The notes below the pieces were generated by a model. That model saw only the letters and a list, made by a program, of their open reading frames with translations, searched no databases and had not been told where the DNA came from. A program made the translations under genes and the position numbers. 64,000 bases of DNA from a virus, in IMG/VR virus record IMGVR_UViG_3300011113_000664, positions 1 through 64,000 of that record. The stretch is one strand, 5' to 3'. This document shows, in pieces, positions 3,706 to 48,979 of the stretch (position 1 is the stretch's first letter; each line of letters starts with the position of its first letter).

Positions 3706-4377
3706 TTATTTTTTTCTAAATTCTTTTTTTAATCTTCCCTCAACATAATTTTTAGGTATTATATCTGTTGTTTTAAAATATTTTTCTTTACCTTCTTCTA
3801 TTGAATGATACCATTTCATTCCTAACACATTTACTTTACCTAATGCACCTATTTTAACCCTACCTAACTTCCATCCATCAGGTATATCACCTAATATCAT
3901 TTTTGATTCGTTTGTTAAAATATTTGTAATCCATTTTTTATTATAATTATGATTTAATTCACCATCTTGTTTCCTATTAATTTTTTCACCATTTAAATCT
4001 CTTAAAATTTTTTTATATTTTTTAGTTTCAATTCCTTTATTTATGGTATCTAAAGATTTAGGTCTTTTCCACATTTCCATGCAAAGATTTTTAGCATATT
4101 CATATTCTCTAGATGATACTATATAATCTCTTTTTGTTTTTTGATTACACATTCCCCAAAAAGCATATTTAAGTTTTTCATTATTAGGATATAATTCACA
4201 TAATATTTTATGACAAATAAAATGTTCCTTTGCTGTTAATATTGTCAAATTATTTTTTTGATTTGTACCACCCATACATCTAGGAATAATATGATGCTTT
4301 TCTTTATAGATTGAATTATCTATAATCCTATTTTGACCTCTTTCACAAATTTTATTATATATTAGTAATAAATCCAT
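3706..4377 (-). CDS. HNH homing endonuclease
   Basis: EKHHIIPRCMGGTNQKNNLTILTAKEHFICH HNH motif, followed by NUMOD-like KWITN..GWKLGR repeats. Confidence 0.85.
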   Translation of the reverse strand: MDLLLIYNKICERGQNRIIDNSIYKEKHHIIPRCMGGTNQKNNLTILTAKEHFICHKILCELYPNNEKLKYAFWGMCNQKTKRDYIVSSREYEYAKNLCMEMWKRPKSLDTINKGIETKKYKKILRDLNGEKINRKQDGELNHNYNKKWITNILTNESKMILGDIPDGWKLGRVKIGALGKVNVLGMKWYHSIEEGKEKYFKTTDIIPKNYVEGRLKKEFRKK

Positions 4378-4398
4378 AATATAAATATAATAAATTGA

Positions 4399-5802
4399 TT
4401 ACCAATAACCTCCAGTTGAGGAAAGGCCGAGGCTGCGTGCCACAGATGGTAATCTGCACGACCAATATCCACTTGTGGTTCTATCTTTCTTTTGTGGGCA
4501 ATTATGTCTTGCTGAGAATGATTTCTTAGCTTTAGGGTCTCTAAGTTTAACTGCAAGATTGTGTCCACCACCTGCTGCACCGAAAGATACTTTTTTTACT
4601 TTACCTGTCTTTGGATTTCTCACATAAACATAAAATTTTTTTCCACTTGAACCGCCACGCTTTGGTTTACCTAATTGAACTTTCTTACCTTTATATACCG
4701 CTTCAGATAAAAGTTCTTCATCAGATTGAAACTCTTCTTGAATTAAACCAAGATATACTTCACCAATACCTTTAATCTTTACAGGAGTTGGGTCAAACTC
4801 ATCAACAATGAAAGCATCAGCTTCATTTAATGAAATAAGACCTTTATTATAAAGTTCTTTAACTTCCTTTATAAGTTCAATATGTTTATGTGAACCATAT
4901 CTGAATTCAGATTCACATAAAGGAATATTTTCATCTAAATGATGTTTTAATTCTTTAGAAACGAAAGCCTTTTTTTTTAGTTTCATTCCTTCGTTAATAC
5001 TAGGTAGATTTTTATTTAAACTATCATCAAAACCACGACTTTTTAAAAATTCTTGTTCTTTACCAAGTGCTTTTGCTTTAAAATATTCTACAAAATCATC
5101 ATTTGATAGTTTTGATGTTACAAATTCTCTCTTTTTTCTAATACCGATATGTGTAGGATTTTTTAATCTTGCATCTTCAGGTGAACCTAATGTATCATCT
5201 TCTTCATACATCATTTCTTCATCATCCTCATCTTCTTCTTCACCCCAAGAATCATCTTCACCTTGACCATGCATTTCACCCATAATGAAATCAAATACTT
5301 GGTCCATATTATTCTTTGCTTCAGCAATATGGTCAGCAGCCCAATCATGTCCATTATTCAAAAGGTCTTCAAGCATATCTTCATCCATTTGAAGAAGCAT
5401 TCTTGCTTGACGCATCATTTGTTCTAGGTTTGAAAAGAACATATATCTTGTGTCGTTAGGCTCTTCAGAACCACCACAACCACAATCACTTTCATCCAAT
5501 TCAACACCTCTACCTTTTAATATATCTGCTCTAGTTACTTTTCCATCACTTGTTAAATCAGGGAATGATTCTTTTTCATGTAATTTCTTTTTAGATTTCT
5601 TCTTAGTAATCTTTCTCATGGCTCTTAAATCAGCCATATCATCGGCTTCAATATCACCATCATTATCTACATCAAAAGTACGAAGTTGTTTTTTAGTTAG
5701 TTTTTTCTTTTCATCAATTACCTCATCTTTTTTTATTTCTTTAGTTTCATTGATGAAGTTTTTGATTCTATCAAATTGATTTTTACTTATAACTGCTTTC
5801 AT
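4399..5802 (-). CDS. Multidomain late protein, probable capsid-internal cargo
   Basis: 467 aa; CTATTTAT upstream; N-terminal tag MKAVISKNQFDRIKNFINE; DxDxDG motifs; basic C-terminal domain with ARHNC..YWSC. Confidence 0.7.
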   Translation of the reverse strand: MKAVISKNQFDRIKNFINETKEIKKDEVIDEKKKLTKKQLRTFDVDNDGDIEADDMADLRAMRKITKKKSKKKLHEKESFPDLTSDGKVTRADILKGRGVELDESDCGCGGSEEPNDTRYMFFSNLEQMMRQARMLLQMDEDMLEDLLNNGHDWAADHIAEAKNNMDQVFDFIMGEMHGQGEDDSWGEEEDEDDEEMMYEEDDTLGSPEDARLKNPTHIGIRKKREFVTSKLSNDDFVEYFKAKALGKEQEFLKSRGFDDSLNKNLPSINEGMKLKKKAFVSKELKHHLDENIPLCESEFRYGSHKHIELIKEVKELYNKGLISLNEADAFIVDEFDPTPVKIKGIGEVYLGLIQEEFQSDEELLSEAVYKGKKVQLGKPKRGGSSGKKFYVYVRNPKTGKVKKVSFGAAGGGHNLAVKLRDPKAKKSFSARHNCPQKKDRTTSGYWSCRLPSVARSLGLSSTGGYW

Positions 5803-43999: not shown

Positions 44000-44818
44000 T
44001 TAATCAATAGAGCCATTTAGTTTTAATGCTCTAGCCATTCTTGTCATTCCTATACCACCACCAAATCTTTCAAAGAAATCATGAGAGAAGAAATCTTCCA
44101 ATTCTTTTTCTACTCTATCTTTACCGAAGAGTTCAAATAATTTTTGTGAGTATGCTCCACCTTCAATAGTATAGAACATTTCTCTCATTTTTTCAACATC
44201 ACAGCTTCTTTCGGCAGAGCCAATGGTTTCTTGACCATAAAGGATAACATCAACTTTATTAAAGATACCATTATCGTTATGTTGCATATTCCAAAATGGG
44301 TTTGTTCTTAAAGGAAAGTTTTGTAAAGATACAACAGGACCTTTTTCTTCCCACATTCTTGTTTCATGTTCGTTTTCAAGAATTTCAACTCCACCATATT
44401 CTTGACAAACATCATCATAGTTTACTTCGATTGGTTTATCAAATCCAAGATGCTCTAGTAGTTCAGCTTCAAGTTGAAGCATATCTTTCATTGTGCCTTT
44501 GCTTTCAAATTCAAACATAGGGAAGATAAGTTCATGTCTACCTTGAATTGGATTTTTTTCTTGCCTATATGAAGTTGATACGCAAAAACATCCTTCCCAA
44601 GATGGATTAGTTAATAATCTTTCTTCCAAAATCATTTGTCCTGTTTGCGGAAGAGGCCAAATTTGATTTACATATTCAAATTGGGTTATTGAGTGAGGGT
44701 TTTCACATGCTGCTAATATTGATAGGCAAGATTGTGTTGGTACTTCAATGAAGTTTTTCTTTTGAAAAAATGTTCTTAGTTTGTTTACCGATTGATGGTA
44801 TTGATATGCGTCTTTCAT
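44000..44818 (-). CDS. Stand-alone class II (Asp/Asn/Lys) aminoacyl-tRNA synthetase catalytic-domain homolog
   Basis: Motif 1 FIEVPT, motif 2 YRQE..GRH..F.MFEFE, ETIGSAER, motif 3 GGGIGMTR; no anticodon-binding domain. Confidence 0.8.
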   Translation of the reverse strand: MKDAYQYHQSVNKLRTFFQKKNFIEVPTQSCLSILAACENPHSITQFEYVNQIWPLPQTGQMILEERLLTNPSWEGCFCVSTSYRQEKNPIQGRHELIFPMFEFESKGTMKDMLQLEAELLEHLGFDKPIEVNYDDVCQEYGGVEILENEHETRMWEEKGPVVSLQNFPLRTNPFWNMQHNDNGIFNKVDVILYGQETIGSAERSCDVEKMREMFYTIEGGAYSQKLFELFGKDRVEKELEDFFSHDFFERFGGGIGMTRMARALKLNGSID

Positions 44819-44824
44819 ATTTTT

Positions 44825-45640
44825 TTAATTAAGTTTTTTAATAGAGATTAATTGGAAATTTTTTGATTTTCCTTTATTTATTATTGATTCGTAACTGACA
44901 CGATTTGGTCCTGTCAGATTGTTTTCTTTGTTAAATATATCAGTAAAAATTTTTAATTCTGTTCTTCCATTAAAAAATAAAATTTCTTTATCTTTTTTTA
45001 TTTCATAAATTTTAGAATTAGAATTATTTATACCTTGTCTTTTATTAGACATTTTTAATTTACTTTCCTCTGTATGTTTTCTAGCACCATAAATTTTATT
45101 TCTATATTTAATTGATTCACTAATTTTTCTTTTAGTTTCTTCATCTCTAGAAATTCCTTTACCATAACCTTCATGACCAATCAAAGATTCACTTAATTTC
45201 TTTCTATAGTCTTCTGATTTCATAGTTTGTTTCCATTGTTCATTTTCTAATAATGATTTGGAAATTTTACTTTTTGTTTCTTCTTTGTGTTTATAACCTG
45301 ATTGACCTTCACCACCATCGCTATGGTTTAAAAGTGTACCACCATTTTCAACTCTACCGATTAATTTAATTATATCTTTTTCCTCTTGAAAAGATTGCTC
45401 TTCTAATAAATCTTTTTTTAATATTTGATATAATGGTTTATATCCTTGATTTATAATTGAATTTAATTTTTGGTAAAATCTATTATCAAGTTTTTTGTAT
45501 AAACTAAGATGCCTTTTTGGTCTATCTGATTTACCTTTACCAACATAAATGGGTTCATATTCAAATGTTAAATTATTAAATATATAATTACCTTTTTTTC
45601 TTGGGTCTAGGTAAATATATACACAATAATTAGATAACAT
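44825..45640 (-). CDS. GIY-YIG homing endonuclease with NUMOD3 repeats
   Basis: VYIY..IYVGKG..R..H; LLNHSDGGEG; HKEETKSKIS repeats. Confidence 0.85.
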   Translation of the reverse strand: MLSNYCVYIYLDPRKKGNYIFNNLTFEYEPIYVGKGKSDRPKRHLSLYKKLDNRFYQKLNSIINQGYKPLYQILKKDLLEEQSFQEEKDIIKLIGRVENGGTLLNHSDGGEGQSGYKHKEETKSKISKSLLENEQWKQTMKSEDYRKKLSESLIGHEGYGKGISRDEETKRKISESIKYRNKIYGARKHTEESKLKMSNKRQGINNSNSKIYEIKKDKEILFFNGRTELKIFTDIFNKENNLTGPNRVSYESIINKGKSKNFQLISIKKLN

Positions 45641-47834: not shown

Positions 47835-48041
47835 TCATACTTTACCTTTGATTAATACTAATCTTTCATATAAACATTTTAAATAAGTTTCCATAGCGGA
47901 TAATTGTATTTGTAATAAACCTTGCTGATGGAAATCAAGTTGATTAAATGCTCCTGTAAATAAAAATATTTTAAGTTTTTCAACTTTTTCTTCTAATGAA
48001 ACTTTTTCATCAAGAAGTCTTGTATAAAAATTATTTTCCAT
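47835..48041 (-). CDS. Small coiled-coil phage protein (crAss001_48-like)
   Basis: LLQIQLSAMETYLKCLYERL. Confidence 0.65.
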   Translation of the reverse strand: MENNFYTRLLDEKVSLEEKVEKLKIFLFTGAFNQLDFHQQGLLQIQLSAMETYLKCLYERLVLIKGKV

Positions 48042-48180
48042 ATAGTTTTCTTTTAATGTATTTTTTAATACCTAAACATTTAATCACATAGAGTTCAATA
48101 CGAAACCATCTCTTTAACTTAACCGACCAATGCTCTTTTTTCATTTGGTCAAGTATGCTTTGAAATGTTTCGTTTCTCAT
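48031..48180 (-). CDS. Hypothetical protein (49 aa)
   Basis: Start reassigned to ATG 48180, just after the tRNA-like gene. Confidence 0.5.
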   Translation of the reverse strand: MRNETFQSILDQMKKEHWSVKLKRWFRIELYVIKCLGIKKYIKRKLYGK

Positions 48181-48183
48181 TTG

Positions 48184-48274
48184 TTGGTAGGATGGGATTT
48201 GAACCCATATCATTGTTGAGCCTCTTTTCTAAAGTTTTTTTGAGTCAACCGCTTCGCCATTCAGCCACCTACCA
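48184..48274 (-). tRNA. tRNA-like gene with a 25 nt anticodon loop
   Basis: Acceptor TGGTAGG/CCTACCA, T arm ATGGG-TTCAAAT-CCCAT, anticodon stem GTTGA/TCAAC. Confidence 0.7.
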
Positions 48275-48276
48275 AT

Positions 48277-48386
48277 TTGCTTGTCTTTCCAAGCGGTCAT
48301 CTGTTTTCCCCTATTAGCCCAAATCATCAAAGGGGTATGAAATGGATTTTGTTTGGTGCTTTCGCTTTCCACAGAAAACCAACACA
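48277..48386 (-). ncRNA. Putative structured RNA within the tRNA cluster
   Basis: GGTTTTCTGT/ACAGATGACC stem, GC-GAAA-GC, CCCCT/AGGGG, 3' GCTTG-GAAAGA-CAAGC. Confidence 0.5.
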
Positions 48387-48387
48387 G

Positions 48388-48485
48388 TAGCCTCGCTAGG
48401 AATCGAACCTAGAAGAATTGCTTCTCTCTCCATTCCTCAGAATGGAATGAGAAGGCAATCAGTATATCCATTTACTTACAAGGCC
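48388..48485 (-). tRNA. tRNA-Arg(TCT)-like gene with a 26 nt hairpin insertion in the anticodon loop
   Basis: Acceptor GGCCTTG/CGAGGCT, D arm AGTA/TACT, ATTGC-CTTCT[26 nt]AA-GCAAT, T arm CTAGG-TTCGATT-CCTAG. Confidence 0.75.
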
Positions 48486-48490
48486 ATTAG

Positions 48491-48574
48491 TATCAGGAGA
48501 GGGAGTCGAACCCTCACGGCATTGCTGCCAATGGATTTTAAGTCCATAGTGTCTACCTATTCCACCATCCCGAC
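48491..48574 (-). tRNA. tRNA-Leu(TAA)
   Basis: ATGGA-CTTAAAA-TCCAT anticodon arm, long variable arm GGCA-GCAA-TGCC, GAGGG-TTCGACT-CCCTC; TATATTTG promoter at about 48592. Confidence 0.92.
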
Positions 48575-48637
48575 ATATTGTTTTCACAATTCAAATATAA
48601 GACTTTTTTTTGATTCTAACTATTTAAAGAAAAAAAG

Positions 48638-48979
48638 ATGAAAAAAGTTTTAGTTACTGAATCTCAATTAAGAACAATGGTTCGTAAAATGTTAATGGAA
48701 CAACCTGCAATGGGTGGTACACCTGTTGGTGGTACAGGATTTGCAGGAACTTCAAGTTTAACAACTAATGCTGCTAAACAATCTACCACATTACAATCTC
48801 AAAGAAATAAACAACAACAAACTACGTTATCAAATGTTAAAAACCTTAATCAACTTAACGGTCAGTTTTTAAACTTAATGAATGGTGTTAGTAAAGATAC
48901 ACTTGGTCCTGGAAAAATGACTAAACAAACTTTGATTACTAATTTTGGTAAATTACTTACAGATTTAGGTTATAAGTAA
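48638..48979 (+). CDS. Late protein with VTESQL tag
   Basis: MKKVLVTESQLRTMVRKMLME; CTATTTAA at 48620. Confidence 0.75.
   Translation: MKKVLVTESQLRTMVRKMLMEQPAMGGTPVGGTGFAGTSSLTTNAAKQSTTLQSQRNKQQQTTLSNVKNLNQLNGQFLNLMNGVSKDTLGPGKMTKQTLITNFGKLLTDLGYK

What the first reader, a model, noticed from the sequence alone, without database searches (positions are those of the whole stretch)
48184..48274. tRNA-like gene with a 25 nt anticodon loop
Seen: perfect acceptor, T and anticodon stems, but the loop is CTCAAAAAAACTTTAGAAAAGAGGC, 18 nt too long. It begins like a CAA loop, yet there is no Leu-type variable arm. Intact stems argue against simple decay. Inference: an intron-containing tRNA, or a non-decoding tRNA mimic such as a decoy for anticodon nucleases or tRNA-sensing defences.
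Basis: partly seen in the sequence, partly recalled or inferred. Interest (0 to 1): 0.7.

Follow-up and report, generated by a model that had tools for sequence, protein, structure and literature searches.

The report
Insert-bearing leucine-type phage tRNA gene
A large uncultured bacteriophage carries a well-formed leucine-type tRNA gene with 18 extra bases in its anticodon loop; the insert fits no known tRNA-splicing signal, so the RNA is either cut and rejoined by an undescribed route or kept as a tRNA-shaped RNA that no longer decodes.

Summary
Window 48184-48274 (minus strand) is a tRNA gene (Rfam 51 bits) with perfect stems and a 25-nt anticodon loop. The window is part of a 170-kb phage record, probably from a Bacteroidota phage.

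The D arm, A73 and the anticodon stem plus first seven loop bases (GGUUGA-CUCAAAA-UCAAC) match genuine tRNA-Leu(CAA). The long Leu variable arm is missing, and 18 nt sit between the loop and the 3' strand of the stem. The insert has no bulge-helix-bulge motif, ribozyme or long helix.

Three other metagenomic contigs carry the identical gene; one has a compensatory acceptor pair. One relative has an ordinary tRNA-Ile(UAU) at the same site, and others lack the gene.

The neighbouring tRNA-Arg(UCU) carries an invariant 26-nt hairpin insert exactly between positions 36 and 37. Four of eight alleles have it, and its junctions have RNase III-like geometry. Precise anticodon-loop inserts therefore exist in this lineage.

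No ligase or endonuclease gene was found in the fragments held.

My odds:
- Spliced intervening sequence: about 0.4.
- Unspliced, non-decoding tRNA-like RNA: about 0.35.
- Dead allele: about 0.2.

This scan has noted similar insert-bearing phage tRNAs on other DNA. The only published precedent I found is the 'enigmatic introns' of Lak megaphages.

The parts
48184..48274 (-). tRNA1: the flagged 91-nt tRNA gene, a tRNA-Leu(CAA)-derived body with a short variable region and a 25-nt anticodon loop
   Evidence: Rfam RF00005 51.4 bits. Identical on L083, L271 and L267.
48238..48244 (-). First seven loop bases, CUCAAAA: a complete, canonical tRNA-Leu(CAA) anticodon loop
   Evidence: The same GGUUGA-CUCAAAA-UCAAC arm is found in 18 bona fide class II tRNA-Leu(CAA) genes of bacteria and phages.
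48220..48237 (-). The 18 extra bases, AAACUUUAGAAAAGAGGC. By comparison with Leu(CAA) loops they lie at 38/39; ARAGORN's equally long placement is 37/38. The segment is A-rich; only a 3-bp CUC/GAG extension of the stem or a 4-bp mini-hairpin is possible.
   Evidence: Sequence. Fold. No bulge-helix-bulge candidate. Unique in the 170-kb record.
48209..48214 (-). Six-base variable region AAUGAU, where a tRNA-Leu would have a long extra arm
   Evidence: cmscan alignment. Comparison with class II Leu(CAA) genes.
48275..48387 (-). Conserved structured RNA of about 110 nt between the two insert-bearing tRNAs. Its 3' end abuts the 5' end of tRNA1. It is present wherever tRNA1 is present.
   Evidence: 91-96% identical among relatives, with compensatory changes in an internal hairpin. 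No Rfam family.
48388..48485 (-). tRNA2: tRNA-Arg(UCU) with a 26-nt hairpin insert
   Evidence: Rfam 46.3 bits. An allele series with and without the insert.
48424..48449 (-). The 26-nt insert of tRNA-Arg(UCU), CAUUCCAUUCUGAGGAAUGGAGAGAG, lying exactly between U36 and A37
   Evidence: Empty-site alleles have the loop CUUCUAA (L083, L271, L004, L007). The insert is identical in four alleles on three different tRNA bodies. The fold shows a continuous helix with the two junctions staggered by 2 bp.
48490..48574 (-). Ordinary class II tRNA-Leu(UAA), the first gene of the cluster
   Evidence: ARAGORN and Rfam, 55 bits.

Best explanation
This is a maintained phage tRNA gene derived from tRNA-Leu(CAA). 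It has lost the long variable arm and carries an 18-nt intervening sequence in its anticodon loop. As transcribed it cannot decode.

I think it most likely belongs, with the neighbouring tRNA-Arg(UCU) gene, to the class of short, ribozyme-free intervening sequences seen in large-phage tRNA genes. On this reading the primary transcript is trimmed by RNase P and 3' processing. The 18 nt are then cut out by protein enzymes of the host or of the unsequenced half of the phage. The ends are rejoined by an RNA ligase, giving a type I tRNA that reads UUG.

Shown here: the gene, its Leu(CAA) ancestry, its recurrence on other contigs, the absence of known splice signals, and the precise mobile insert next door.

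Inferred: that this insert is removed at all, where the cuts fall, and which enzymes act.
For: 1. It has a full tRNA architecture with every stem intact and the conserved core bases present (U8, A14, GG in the D loop, T loop UUCAAAU). It scores 51.4 bits.

2. The D arm, A73 and the anticodon stem plus first 7 loop bases are those of genuine tRNA-Leu(CAA). The extra 18 nt therefore look like a discrete addition to an intact loop.

3. The identical gene lies on three other contigs (L083, L271, L267). Their neighbouring endolysin gene is only 82-98% identical at the nucleotide level, with about 75% identity at third codon positions for L271. Substitutions occur at positions -1 and -3 and again 11 nt after its 3' end, but none inside the gene, apart from one compensatory acceptor pair, U4:A69 to C4:G69.

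4. The adjacent tRNA-Arg(UCU) serves the phage's main Arg codon (AGA is 75% of Arg codons). It carries a 26-nt insert with exact boundaries. The insert is present in 4 of 8 alleles, on three tRNA bodies that differ by compensatory changes. Anticodon-loop inserts in this lineage are therefore compatible with continued selection on tRNA structure.

5. A natural bacterial type I tRNA-Leu(CAA) that LeuRS charges is known (PMC6614811). The missing variable arm is therefore not fatal to a decoding role.

6. Lak megaphage tRNAs have conserved 'enigmatic' introns (PMC6784885).
Against: - The insert has no structure that a known enzyme would recognise. There is no bulge-helix-bulge, no ribozyme and no long helix like the Arg insert.
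- No insert-free allele of this tRNA body was found in IMG/VR, in the GTDB genomes or among cultured phages. The boundaries are therefore inferred, not observed.
- No Rnl1, Rnl2, RtcB, RNase III or Sen/EndA gene was found in this record or in four related fragments. All of these records are incomplete.
- UUG is only 10% of Leu codons, and a tRNA-Leu(UAA) is present. The decoding benefit is therefore small.
- The same study (PMC6614811) indicates that ordinary LeuRS enzymes charge only type II tRNA-Leu.
- Identical alleles in otherwise diverged genomes are common in this recombining cluster. Arg allele B1 is 100% identical between the window and L002, and Leu(UAA) is identical between L001 and L083. 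The invariance of the insert is therefore weak evidence of selection.
Confidence: 0.4

Rival explanations
1. The RNA is not spliced. It is kept as a tRNA-shaped RNA that no longer decodes. Its acceptor/T-arm/D-arm half serves as a handle for RNase P and 3'-end processing. That processing releases the conserved 110-nt RNA just upstream and the small-protein mRNA that starts 4 nt downstream. The handle could also serve other tRNA-binding proteins. The enlarged loop still displays an intact host-like Leu(CAA) anticodon arm, so it could act as bait for an anticodon-loop nuclease or a tRNA-sensing defence.
For: - The gene departs from a decoding tRNA-Leu in two independent ways, a lost variable arm and an enlarged loop, yet no stem mismatch has accumulated.
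- tRNA1 and the upstream structured RNA occur together in 5 of 5 contigs (window, L001, L083, L271, L267). Both are absent in L002, L268 and L269.
- More distant relatives carry tRNA-like genes with a conserved acceptor stem, a Leu-type D arm and a T arm, but no anticodon arm at all. They sit next to the same structured RNA or to other structured spacers (L005:2247-2353, L084, G004).
- No unknown enzyme needs to be postulated.
- The anticodon arm is identical to that of widespread bacterial Leu(CAA) tRNAs.
Against: - A processing handle does not need an intact anticodon stem or a canonical CUCAAAA loop.
- The co-occurrence with the spacer RNA may only reflect one indel cassette.
- In L001 the same position is held by a normal tRNA-Ile(UAU), so a decoding tRNA does the job as well.
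- Nothing here links the RNA to any defence nuclease.
Confidence: 0.35
2. It is an inactive allele. A recombination accident between tRNA genes left a Leu(CAA)-type middle without its variable arm and with junk in the loop. The allele persists by hitch-hiking in a cluster whose tRNA cassettes are shuffled among co-infecting phages.
For: - The cluster is a mosaic. Leu(UAA) has at least three alleles, two of them only about 81% identical, and Arg(UCU) has three bodies.
- tRNA1 has two unrelated middles, M1 (window, L083, L271, L267) and M2 (L001), inside the same acceptor and T arms. The alleles are combined differently in each contig.
- The locus is dispensable: it is absent in L002, L268 and L269.
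- The codon need for it is low.
- All four M1 copies are nearly identical, so there is little evolutionary depth to show selection.
Against: - Two large lesions without a single stem-breaking substitution would be unusual for decay.
- Both acceptor haplotypes are fully paired.
- Between the window and L271 the flanks differ right up to the gene borders, and synonymous-type sites in the next gene differ by about 25%, yet the 91 nt are identical.
- The allele is found in three different upstream contexts.
Confidence: 0.2
3. It is an archaeal or eukaryotic type of tRNA intron, cut at a bulge-helix-bulge motif by a splicing endonuclease, because the virus infects an archaeon or a eukaryote.
For: The insert length and a possible 37/38 position are typical of such introns.
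Against: - No bulge-helix-bulge can be drawn.
- The virus has phage genes and a peptidoglycan peptidase (Peptidase_M15_3) endolysin.
- No endonuclease family match was found. In the control genomes that family is found only in archaea.
Confidence: 0.03

Closest known systems
'Enigmatic' introns of Lak megaphage tRNA genes (Devoto et al. 2019, Nat Microbiol, PMC6784885)
   Same: Oversized tRNA genes in a large, AT-rich uncultured phage. The extra sequence lies in the anticodon loop and is seen only when intron-tolerant settings are used. The insert sequence is identical between variants. The mechanism is unknown.
   Different: At least the Lak tRNA-Tyr intron is far longer (93 nt), and one Lak intron is itself predicted to encode a tRNA. 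Neither insert sequence of this cluster occurs in their Table S6. This phage is unrelated to Lak (PolB about 23% identical to any cultured phage) and uses the standard genetic code.
Protein-spliced tRNA introns of archaea and eukaryotes (bulge-helix-bulge, position 37/38; review PMC4090602)
   Same: A short, non-catalytic insert in the anticodon loop of an otherwise complete tRNA. A 37/38 placement is possible.
   Different: There is no bulge-helix-bulge. The host is bacterial. No splicing endonuclease family match was found.
Group I introns in bacterial and phage tRNA anticodon loops (for example tRNA-Leu(UAA); review PMC3984707)
   Same: A tRNA gene interrupted in the anticodon loop, in the bacterial and phage world.
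   Different: 18 nt cannot hold a ribozyme, and there is no Rfam intron match.
Intervening sequences of bacterial 23S rRNA removed by RNase III (my own knowledge; not searched)
   Same: Sporadic, strain-variable, conserved hairpin inserts in a stable RNA, cut out by a host enzyme. This is a good match for the neighbouring Arg(UCU) insert: a continuous helix with junctions staggered by 2 bp.
   Different: The flagged insert has no such helix. The rRNA pieces are not rejoined, whereas a tRNA cut in its anticodon loop would need ligation to decode.
Type I (short variable loop) tRNA-Leu(CAA) of Streptomyces coelicolor (Fan et al. 2019, PMC6614811)
   Same: A bacterial-world tRNA-Leu(CAA) without the long variable arm, shown there to be leucylated.
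   Different: That tRNA has a normal 7-nt loop. Charging needed a special feature of the Streptomyces LeuRS.
Phage tRNAs that counter anticodon nucleases (for example the tRNA that neutralises PARIS; commentary PMC11455837)
   Same: A phage-encoded tRNA with an altered anticodon loop, possibly relevant to tRNA-targeting defence.
   Different: Those tRNAs still decode and differ by point changes. Nothing here shows any interaction with a nuclease.

Membership tests
tRNA (Rfam RF00005) | Cloverleaf with acceptor, D, anticodon and T arms, scoring above the gathering threshold | tested here: met
   51.4 bits against a threshold of 29. The model is matched over positions 1-71, with 20 extra bases placed in the anticodon loop.
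tRNA-Leu (bacterial, class II) | Discriminator A73 and a Leu-type D arm and anticodon arm | tested here: met
   A73 is present. The D arm is GCUGAAUGGCGAAGC. The arm GGUUGA-CUCAAAA-UCAAC is identical to that of 18 genuine tRNA-Leu(CAA) genes.
tRNA-Leu (bacterial, class II) | Long variable arm | tested here: not met
   The variable region is 6 nt, AAUGAU.
tRNA-Leu (bacterial, class II) | Leucylation by LeuRS | not testable with these tools
   Needs an aminoacylation assay. A type I Leu(CAA) precedent exists (PMC6614811).
Archaeal/eukaryal protein-spliced tRNA intron | Bulge-helix-bulge (two 3-nt bulges separated by 4 bp) spanning the splice sites | tested here: not met
   An exhaustive search of the anticodon region found one 4-bp candidate, with 0 of 2 outer and 1 of 2 inner flanking pairs, and it uses bases of the anticodon stem.
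Archaeal/eukaryal protein-spliced tRNA intron | Splicing endonuclease (PF01974) available | tested here: not met
   No match in this record or in four related fragments. Among the control genomes only archaea match. The records are incomplete.
Group I intron in a tRNA gene | Ribozyme core of a few hundred nucleotides | tested here: not met
   The insert is 18 nt. No intron or ribozyme family matches at E up to 1 in 48100-48700.
Short conserved intervening sequences of large-phage tRNA genes (Lak-type 'enigmatic introns') | Extra sequence in the anticodon loop of an otherwise complete phage tRNA gene, with an invariant sequence among variants | tested here: met
   The phage origin is shown. The insert is identical on four contigs.
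Short conserved intervening sequences of large-phage tRNA genes (Lak-type 'enigmatic introns') | An allele of the same tRNA without the insert, which defines the boundaries | tested here: not met
   None was found for tRNA1. The feature is met for the neighbouring Arg(UCU) gene.
Short conserved intervening sequences of large-phage tRNA genes (Lak-type 'enigmatic introns') | Removal of the insert from the RNA | not testable with these tools
   No RNA data. As far as I found, this has not been shown for the Lak cases either.
RNase III-excised intervening sequence | Continuous helix of about two turns, with the two junctions staggered to leave 2-nt 3' overhangs | tested here: not met
   tRNA1 forms only a 3-bp CUC/GAG extension. 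The Arg(UCU) insert next door does meet this feature.
Decoy for anticodon nucleases or tRNA-sensing defences | Binding to, or cleavage by, a defence nuclease, with protection of the phage | not testable with these tools
   The only support is that the anticodon arm matches bacterial Leu(CAA).

The most novel reading that the evidence does not exclude
Phages of this lineage, or their Bacteroidota-type hosts, have a protein-only tRNA cut-and-rejoin pathway that needs neither a ribozyme nor a bulge-helix-bulge. It handles inserts as different as the 26-nt RNase III-shaped hairpin in tRNA-Arg(UCU) and this unstructured A-rich 18-mer in a type I tRNA-Leu(CAA). The inserts could then act as switches that keep phage tRNAs inactive, or shielded from anticodon nucleases, until they are processed.
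Probability: 0.25. Interest if true: 0.85.

Novelty: new variant of a known kind. Interest (0 to 1): 0.55.

Why it matters
Bacteria and their viruses are held to splice tRNAs only through self-splicing group I introns. The short, conserved, ribozyme-free inserts reported in megaphage tRNAs in 2019 remain unexplained.

This cluster offers a compact test case with two differently shaped inserts side by side. One of them has natural insert-plus and insert-minus alleles and a geometry that points to a specific enzyme, RNase III.

If the flagged RNA is spliced, a new processing route exists in bacteria. If it is not, it is a clean example of a phage keeping a tRNA shape for a purpose other than decoding, such as an RNA-processing handle or a decoy. 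Either result bears on how phage tRNA sets should be annotated and interpreted.

Tried and rejected
- **Suppressor tRNA or recoding.** The loop contains CUUUAGA (a UUA anticodon in a 7-nt frame), but no stem presents it. Reading TAG or TGA as sense barely changes the ORF map.
- **Bulge-helix-bulge intron.** None can be drawn.
- **Group I intron or small ribozyme.** No Rfam match at E up to 1.
- **RNase III-type helix for this insert.** Absent.
- **Splicing or repair genes.** No PF09511, PF09414, PF14622, PF01139 or PF01974 match in the record, and none of the families searched in four related fragments. All records are incomplete, and PF09511 matched nothing even in the control genomes.
- **The insert as a repeat or mobile unit.** It is unique in the 170 kb.
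- **More relatives or an insert-free allele.** Nothing in IMG/VR, in cultured phages or in GTDB genomes. The five matches are chance matches and not tRNAs.
- **Shine-Dalgarno reading.** AAAGAGG lies 7 nt before an in-frame AUG, which makes gene callers predict a 60-aa ORF starting inside the tRNA. I rejected this reading for three reasons. Only 1-2% of this phage's genes have such a motif upstream. The motif is not rare genome-wide. Relatives start the ORF at the conserved ATGAGAAGC after the tRNA.
- **Same sequence as Lak introns.** No.
- **Lead from earlier notes that hairpin inserts split the only Arg(UCU) gene of some bacteria.** My one pattern search found only an assembly artefact containing Ns. 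The lead is neither confirmed nor refuted here.
- **Invariance of the insert as proof of selection.** Withdrawn. Ordinary tRNA alleles are also shared unchanged between diverged genomes in this cluster.

Full report
**What is there.** Read on the minus strand, window 48184-48274 is a 91-nt tRNA gene:
- Acceptor stem UGGUAGG/CCUACCA, 7 of 7 pairs; discriminator A.
- D stem GCU/AGC plus G.A, with loop AAUGGCGA.
- Anticodon stem GUUGA/UCAAC.
- A 25-nt loop, CUCAAAAAAACUUUAGAAAAGAGGC.
- A 6-nt variable region, AAUGAU.
- T arm AUGGG-UUCAAAU-CCCAU.

The Rfam tRNA model scores it 51.4 bits against a threshold of 29 and places the surplus bases in the anticodon loop. ARAGORN misses it by default. With introns allowed it calls tRNA-Leu(caa) with an 18-nt intron.

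**Whose gene it is.** The window is the first 64 kb of a 170-kb IMG/VR virus record, 27.7% G+C, estimated to be about half complete.
- It encodes a family B DNA polymerase, a Peptidase_M15_3 endolysin, ThyX, MazG, thioredoxin, an ART-PolyVal protein and a GIY-YIG homing endonuclease. It is therefore a large bacteriophage, not an archaeal or eukaryotic virus.
- No stop-codon reassignment is needed to read its genes.
- Only 1-2% of its genes have a Shine-Dalgarno-like motif upstream, and it has a crAss001_48-family protein. I read this as a Bacteroidota-type host; that is an inference.
- The polymerase is only about 23% identical to that of any cultured phage.

**The cluster.** The record has four tRNA genes. 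Three lie head to tail on the minus strand:
- tRNA-Leu(UAA), normal, at 48490-48574.
- tRNA-Arg(UCU) with a 26-nt insert, at 48388-48485.
- A conserved structured RNA of about 110 nt, at 48275-48387.
- The flagged gene, here called tRNA1.

A small ORF starts 4 nt after tRNA1.

**Ancestry of tRNA1.** I searched IMG/VR and the GTDB genomes for its anticodon arm closed by a normal loop. This returned 18 genuine class II tRNA-Leu(CAA) genes, all carrying the same anticodon stem; 17 also have the same 7-nt loop, GGUUGA-CUCAAAA-UCAAC. tRNA1 also has A73 and a Leu-like D arm. It is therefore a tRNA-Leu(CAA) derivative with two departures from the norm. The long variable arm is replaced by 6 nt. Eighteen nucleotides (AAACUUUAGAAAAGAGGC) follow an intact CUCAAAA loop. 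A 37/38 placement of the same length is equally possible.

**Signals in the insert.** The insert can form only a 3-bp CUC/GAG extension of the stem or a 4-bp mini-hairpin. It has no bulge-helix-bulge, matches no Rfam ribozyme or intron family and is unique in the genome.

**Relatives.** I used the neighbouring endolysin, a 20-mer of the spacer RNA and the small downstream protein as handles. This recovered ten related stretches.
- tRNA1 with exactly the same 25-nt loop lies on L083, L271 and L267.
- The only internal difference is U4:A69 versus C4:G69, a compensatory pair.
- Between the window and L271 the endolysin is 81.6% identical, with about 75% identity at third positions of conserved codons. 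The spacer RNA is 93% identical, and substitutions lie 1 and 3 nt before and 11 nt after tRNA1. The 91 nt themselves are identical.
- L001 has a 74-nt tRNA at the same locus, between the same acceptor and T arms, but with different D and anticodon arms and a normal loop with anticodon UAU.
- L002, L268 and L269 lack both the spacer RNA and tRNA1.

**How much that conservation means.** The cluster is a mosaic. Leu(UAA) alleles that are 81% identical, three Arg(UCU) bodies and two tRNA1 middles are combined differently in each contig. Identical alleles of ordinary tRNAs are shared by genomes that are otherwise about 80% identical. The perfect conservation of tRNA1 could therefore reflect allele shuffling as much as selection. 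I do not count it as proof of function, although it argues against slow decay.

**The neighbour as a guide.** Eight Arg(UCU) alleles align cleanly.
- Four have the loop CUUCUAA.
- Four have the same 26 nt, CAUUCCAUUCUGAGGAAUGGAGAGAG, inserted exactly between U36 and A37. These sit on three bodies that differ from each other by compensatory stem changes.
- In the fold the insert continues the anticodon stem as one helix. The two junctions are staggered by 2 bp, so the excised hairpin and the exon ends would each carry 2-nt 3' overhangs. That is the signature of RNase III.
- AGA is 75% of the phage's Arg codons. A dead Arg gene in half of the relatives is therefore unlikely.
- I reached this reading before seeing that earlier notes of this scan say the same.

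This shows that precise, intron-like inserts in anticodon loops are tolerated in this lineage. It does not carry over mechanically to tRNA1, whose insert lies at a different position and has no helix.

**Enzymes.** No T4-type RNA ligase 1 or 2, RtcB, RNase III or splicing endonuclease family matched this record, and none of the four families searched in the related fragments (Rnl2-type ligase, RtcB, splicing endonuclease, plus tRNA as a control) gave an enzyme match there. All records are incomplete, and host enzymes remain possible. RNase III and RtcB families are found in the Bacteroides control genome.

**Explanations.** The evidence does not choose firmly between them.
- *Spliced intervening sequence, about 0.4.* This puts tRNA1 in the same class as its neighbour and the Lak megaphage 'enigmatic introns' (PMC6784885). 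It also explains why a complete Leu(CAA) loop and all stems are kept. A type I tRNA-Leu(CAA) can be a LeuRS substrate (PMC6614811).
- *Unspliced, non-decoding tRNA-like RNA, about 0.35.* It needs no unknown enzyme and accounts for the two independent departures from a decoding tRNA-Leu. It fits the strict pairing of tRNA1 with the upstream structured RNA, whose 3' end RNase P would make by cutting at the 5' end of tRNA1. It also fits the tRNA-like genes of more distant relatives, which keep the acceptor stem, a Leu-type D arm and the T arm but have no anticodon arm at all (L005, L084, G004).
- *Dead, hitch-hiking allele, about 0.2.* The locus is dispensable, and UUG is a minor codon already covered by tRNA-Leu(UAA).
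- *Archaeal-type intron.* Essentially excluded.

**Comparison with what is known.** I found no paper describing short ribozyme-free tRNA inserts in phages other than the Lak report. The inserts here share no sequence with the Lak introns. Earlier notes of this scan list similar insert-bearing phage tRNAs on other DNA: hairpin mini-introns, tRNA-shaped inserts and a 68-nt insert in a Leu-like gene. I treat those as leads only. I therefore class the finding as a new variant of a known but unexplained kind.

Noticed in passing
window 48388-48485 (-); L083:1171-1243, L271:1253-1327, L001:3115-3215, L002:3881-3979, L268:35-133: The tRNA-Arg(UCU) gene has an invariant 26-nt hairpin insert exactly between U36 and A37. 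The insert is present in 4 of 8 alleles, on three tRNA bodies. The junctions are staggered by 2 bp in a continuous helix, which is RNase III-like. This is the best-supported intron-like element of the cluster.
   Followed up: yes
window 48275-48387 (-): A conserved RNA of about 110 nt lies between the two insert-bearing tRNAs. It has a closing stem, an internal hairpin with compensatory changes (CCAUUUCAU/AUGAUUUGG; CCAAUUUAU/AUAAAUUGG; CCAUUCUAC/GUGGAAUGG), a possible CCCCU/AGGGG pseudoknot and a 3' hairpin. It matches no Rfam family. It is also found in distant relatives (L084, L088), there flanked by a tRNA-like gene and tRNA-Leu(UAA).
   Followed up: partly
L005:2247-2353 (same in L006), L084 about 4340-4430 (same in L088), L117 (G004:4010-4122): Related phages carry tRNA-like genes with the acceptor stem AGUCAGG/CCUGACU, A73, a Leu-type D arm and a normal T arm. 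In place of the anticodon and variable arms they have 40-55 nt of variable, poorly structured sequence. These are apparently anticodon-less Leu-like tRNA mimics.
   Followed up: partly
L004:3162-3250, L005:2569-2659: A deviant tRNA-Thr(UGU)-like gene has a complete AUUGUAA loop followed by a 15-nt GNRA-capped mini-hairpin before the 3' strand of the anticodon stem. The layout is the same as in tRNA1: an intact 7-nt loop and then the insert.
   Followed up: no
window 44000-44818 (-): A 272-aa protein consists only of a class II (Asp/Asn/Lys-type) aminoacyl-tRNA synthetase catalytic core, without an anticodon-binding domain (PF00152, E 3e-11). It has weak matches to AsnS, EpmA/GenX and archaeal asparagine synthetase A. 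It lies 3.4 kb from the tRNA cluster.
   Followed up: partly
window 44825-45640 (-): A free-standing GIY-YIG plus NUMOD3 homing endonuclease (Seg-like) lies 2.7 kb from the tRNA cluster. It could drive the cassette-like shuffling of tRNA alleles seen among relatives.
   Followed up: no
window 48575-48600 (-) and the same place in L001, L002, L083, L271: The conserved sequence TATATTTGAATTGTGAAAAC lies just upstream of tRNA-Leu(UAA). It contains TAnnTTTG, which I recall as the Bacteroidota -7 promoter motif. Together with the near absence of Shine-Dalgarno motifs, this points to a Bacteroidota host.
   Followed up: partly
window 48031-48213 (-): Gene callers predict a 60-aa ORF that starts at an AUG in the variable region of tRNA1, 7 nt after AAAGAGG in the insert. 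Relatives without tRNA1 start the same protein at the conserved ATGAGAAGC, so the extension is an annotation artefact.
   Followed up: yes
L272:2859-2896 (Ruminococcaceae MAG DBRF01000005.1): An apparent insert in a bacterial tRNA-Arg(UCU) gene is a duplicated AAGCAGT around two Ns. It is an assembly artefact, not an intron.
   Followed up: yes
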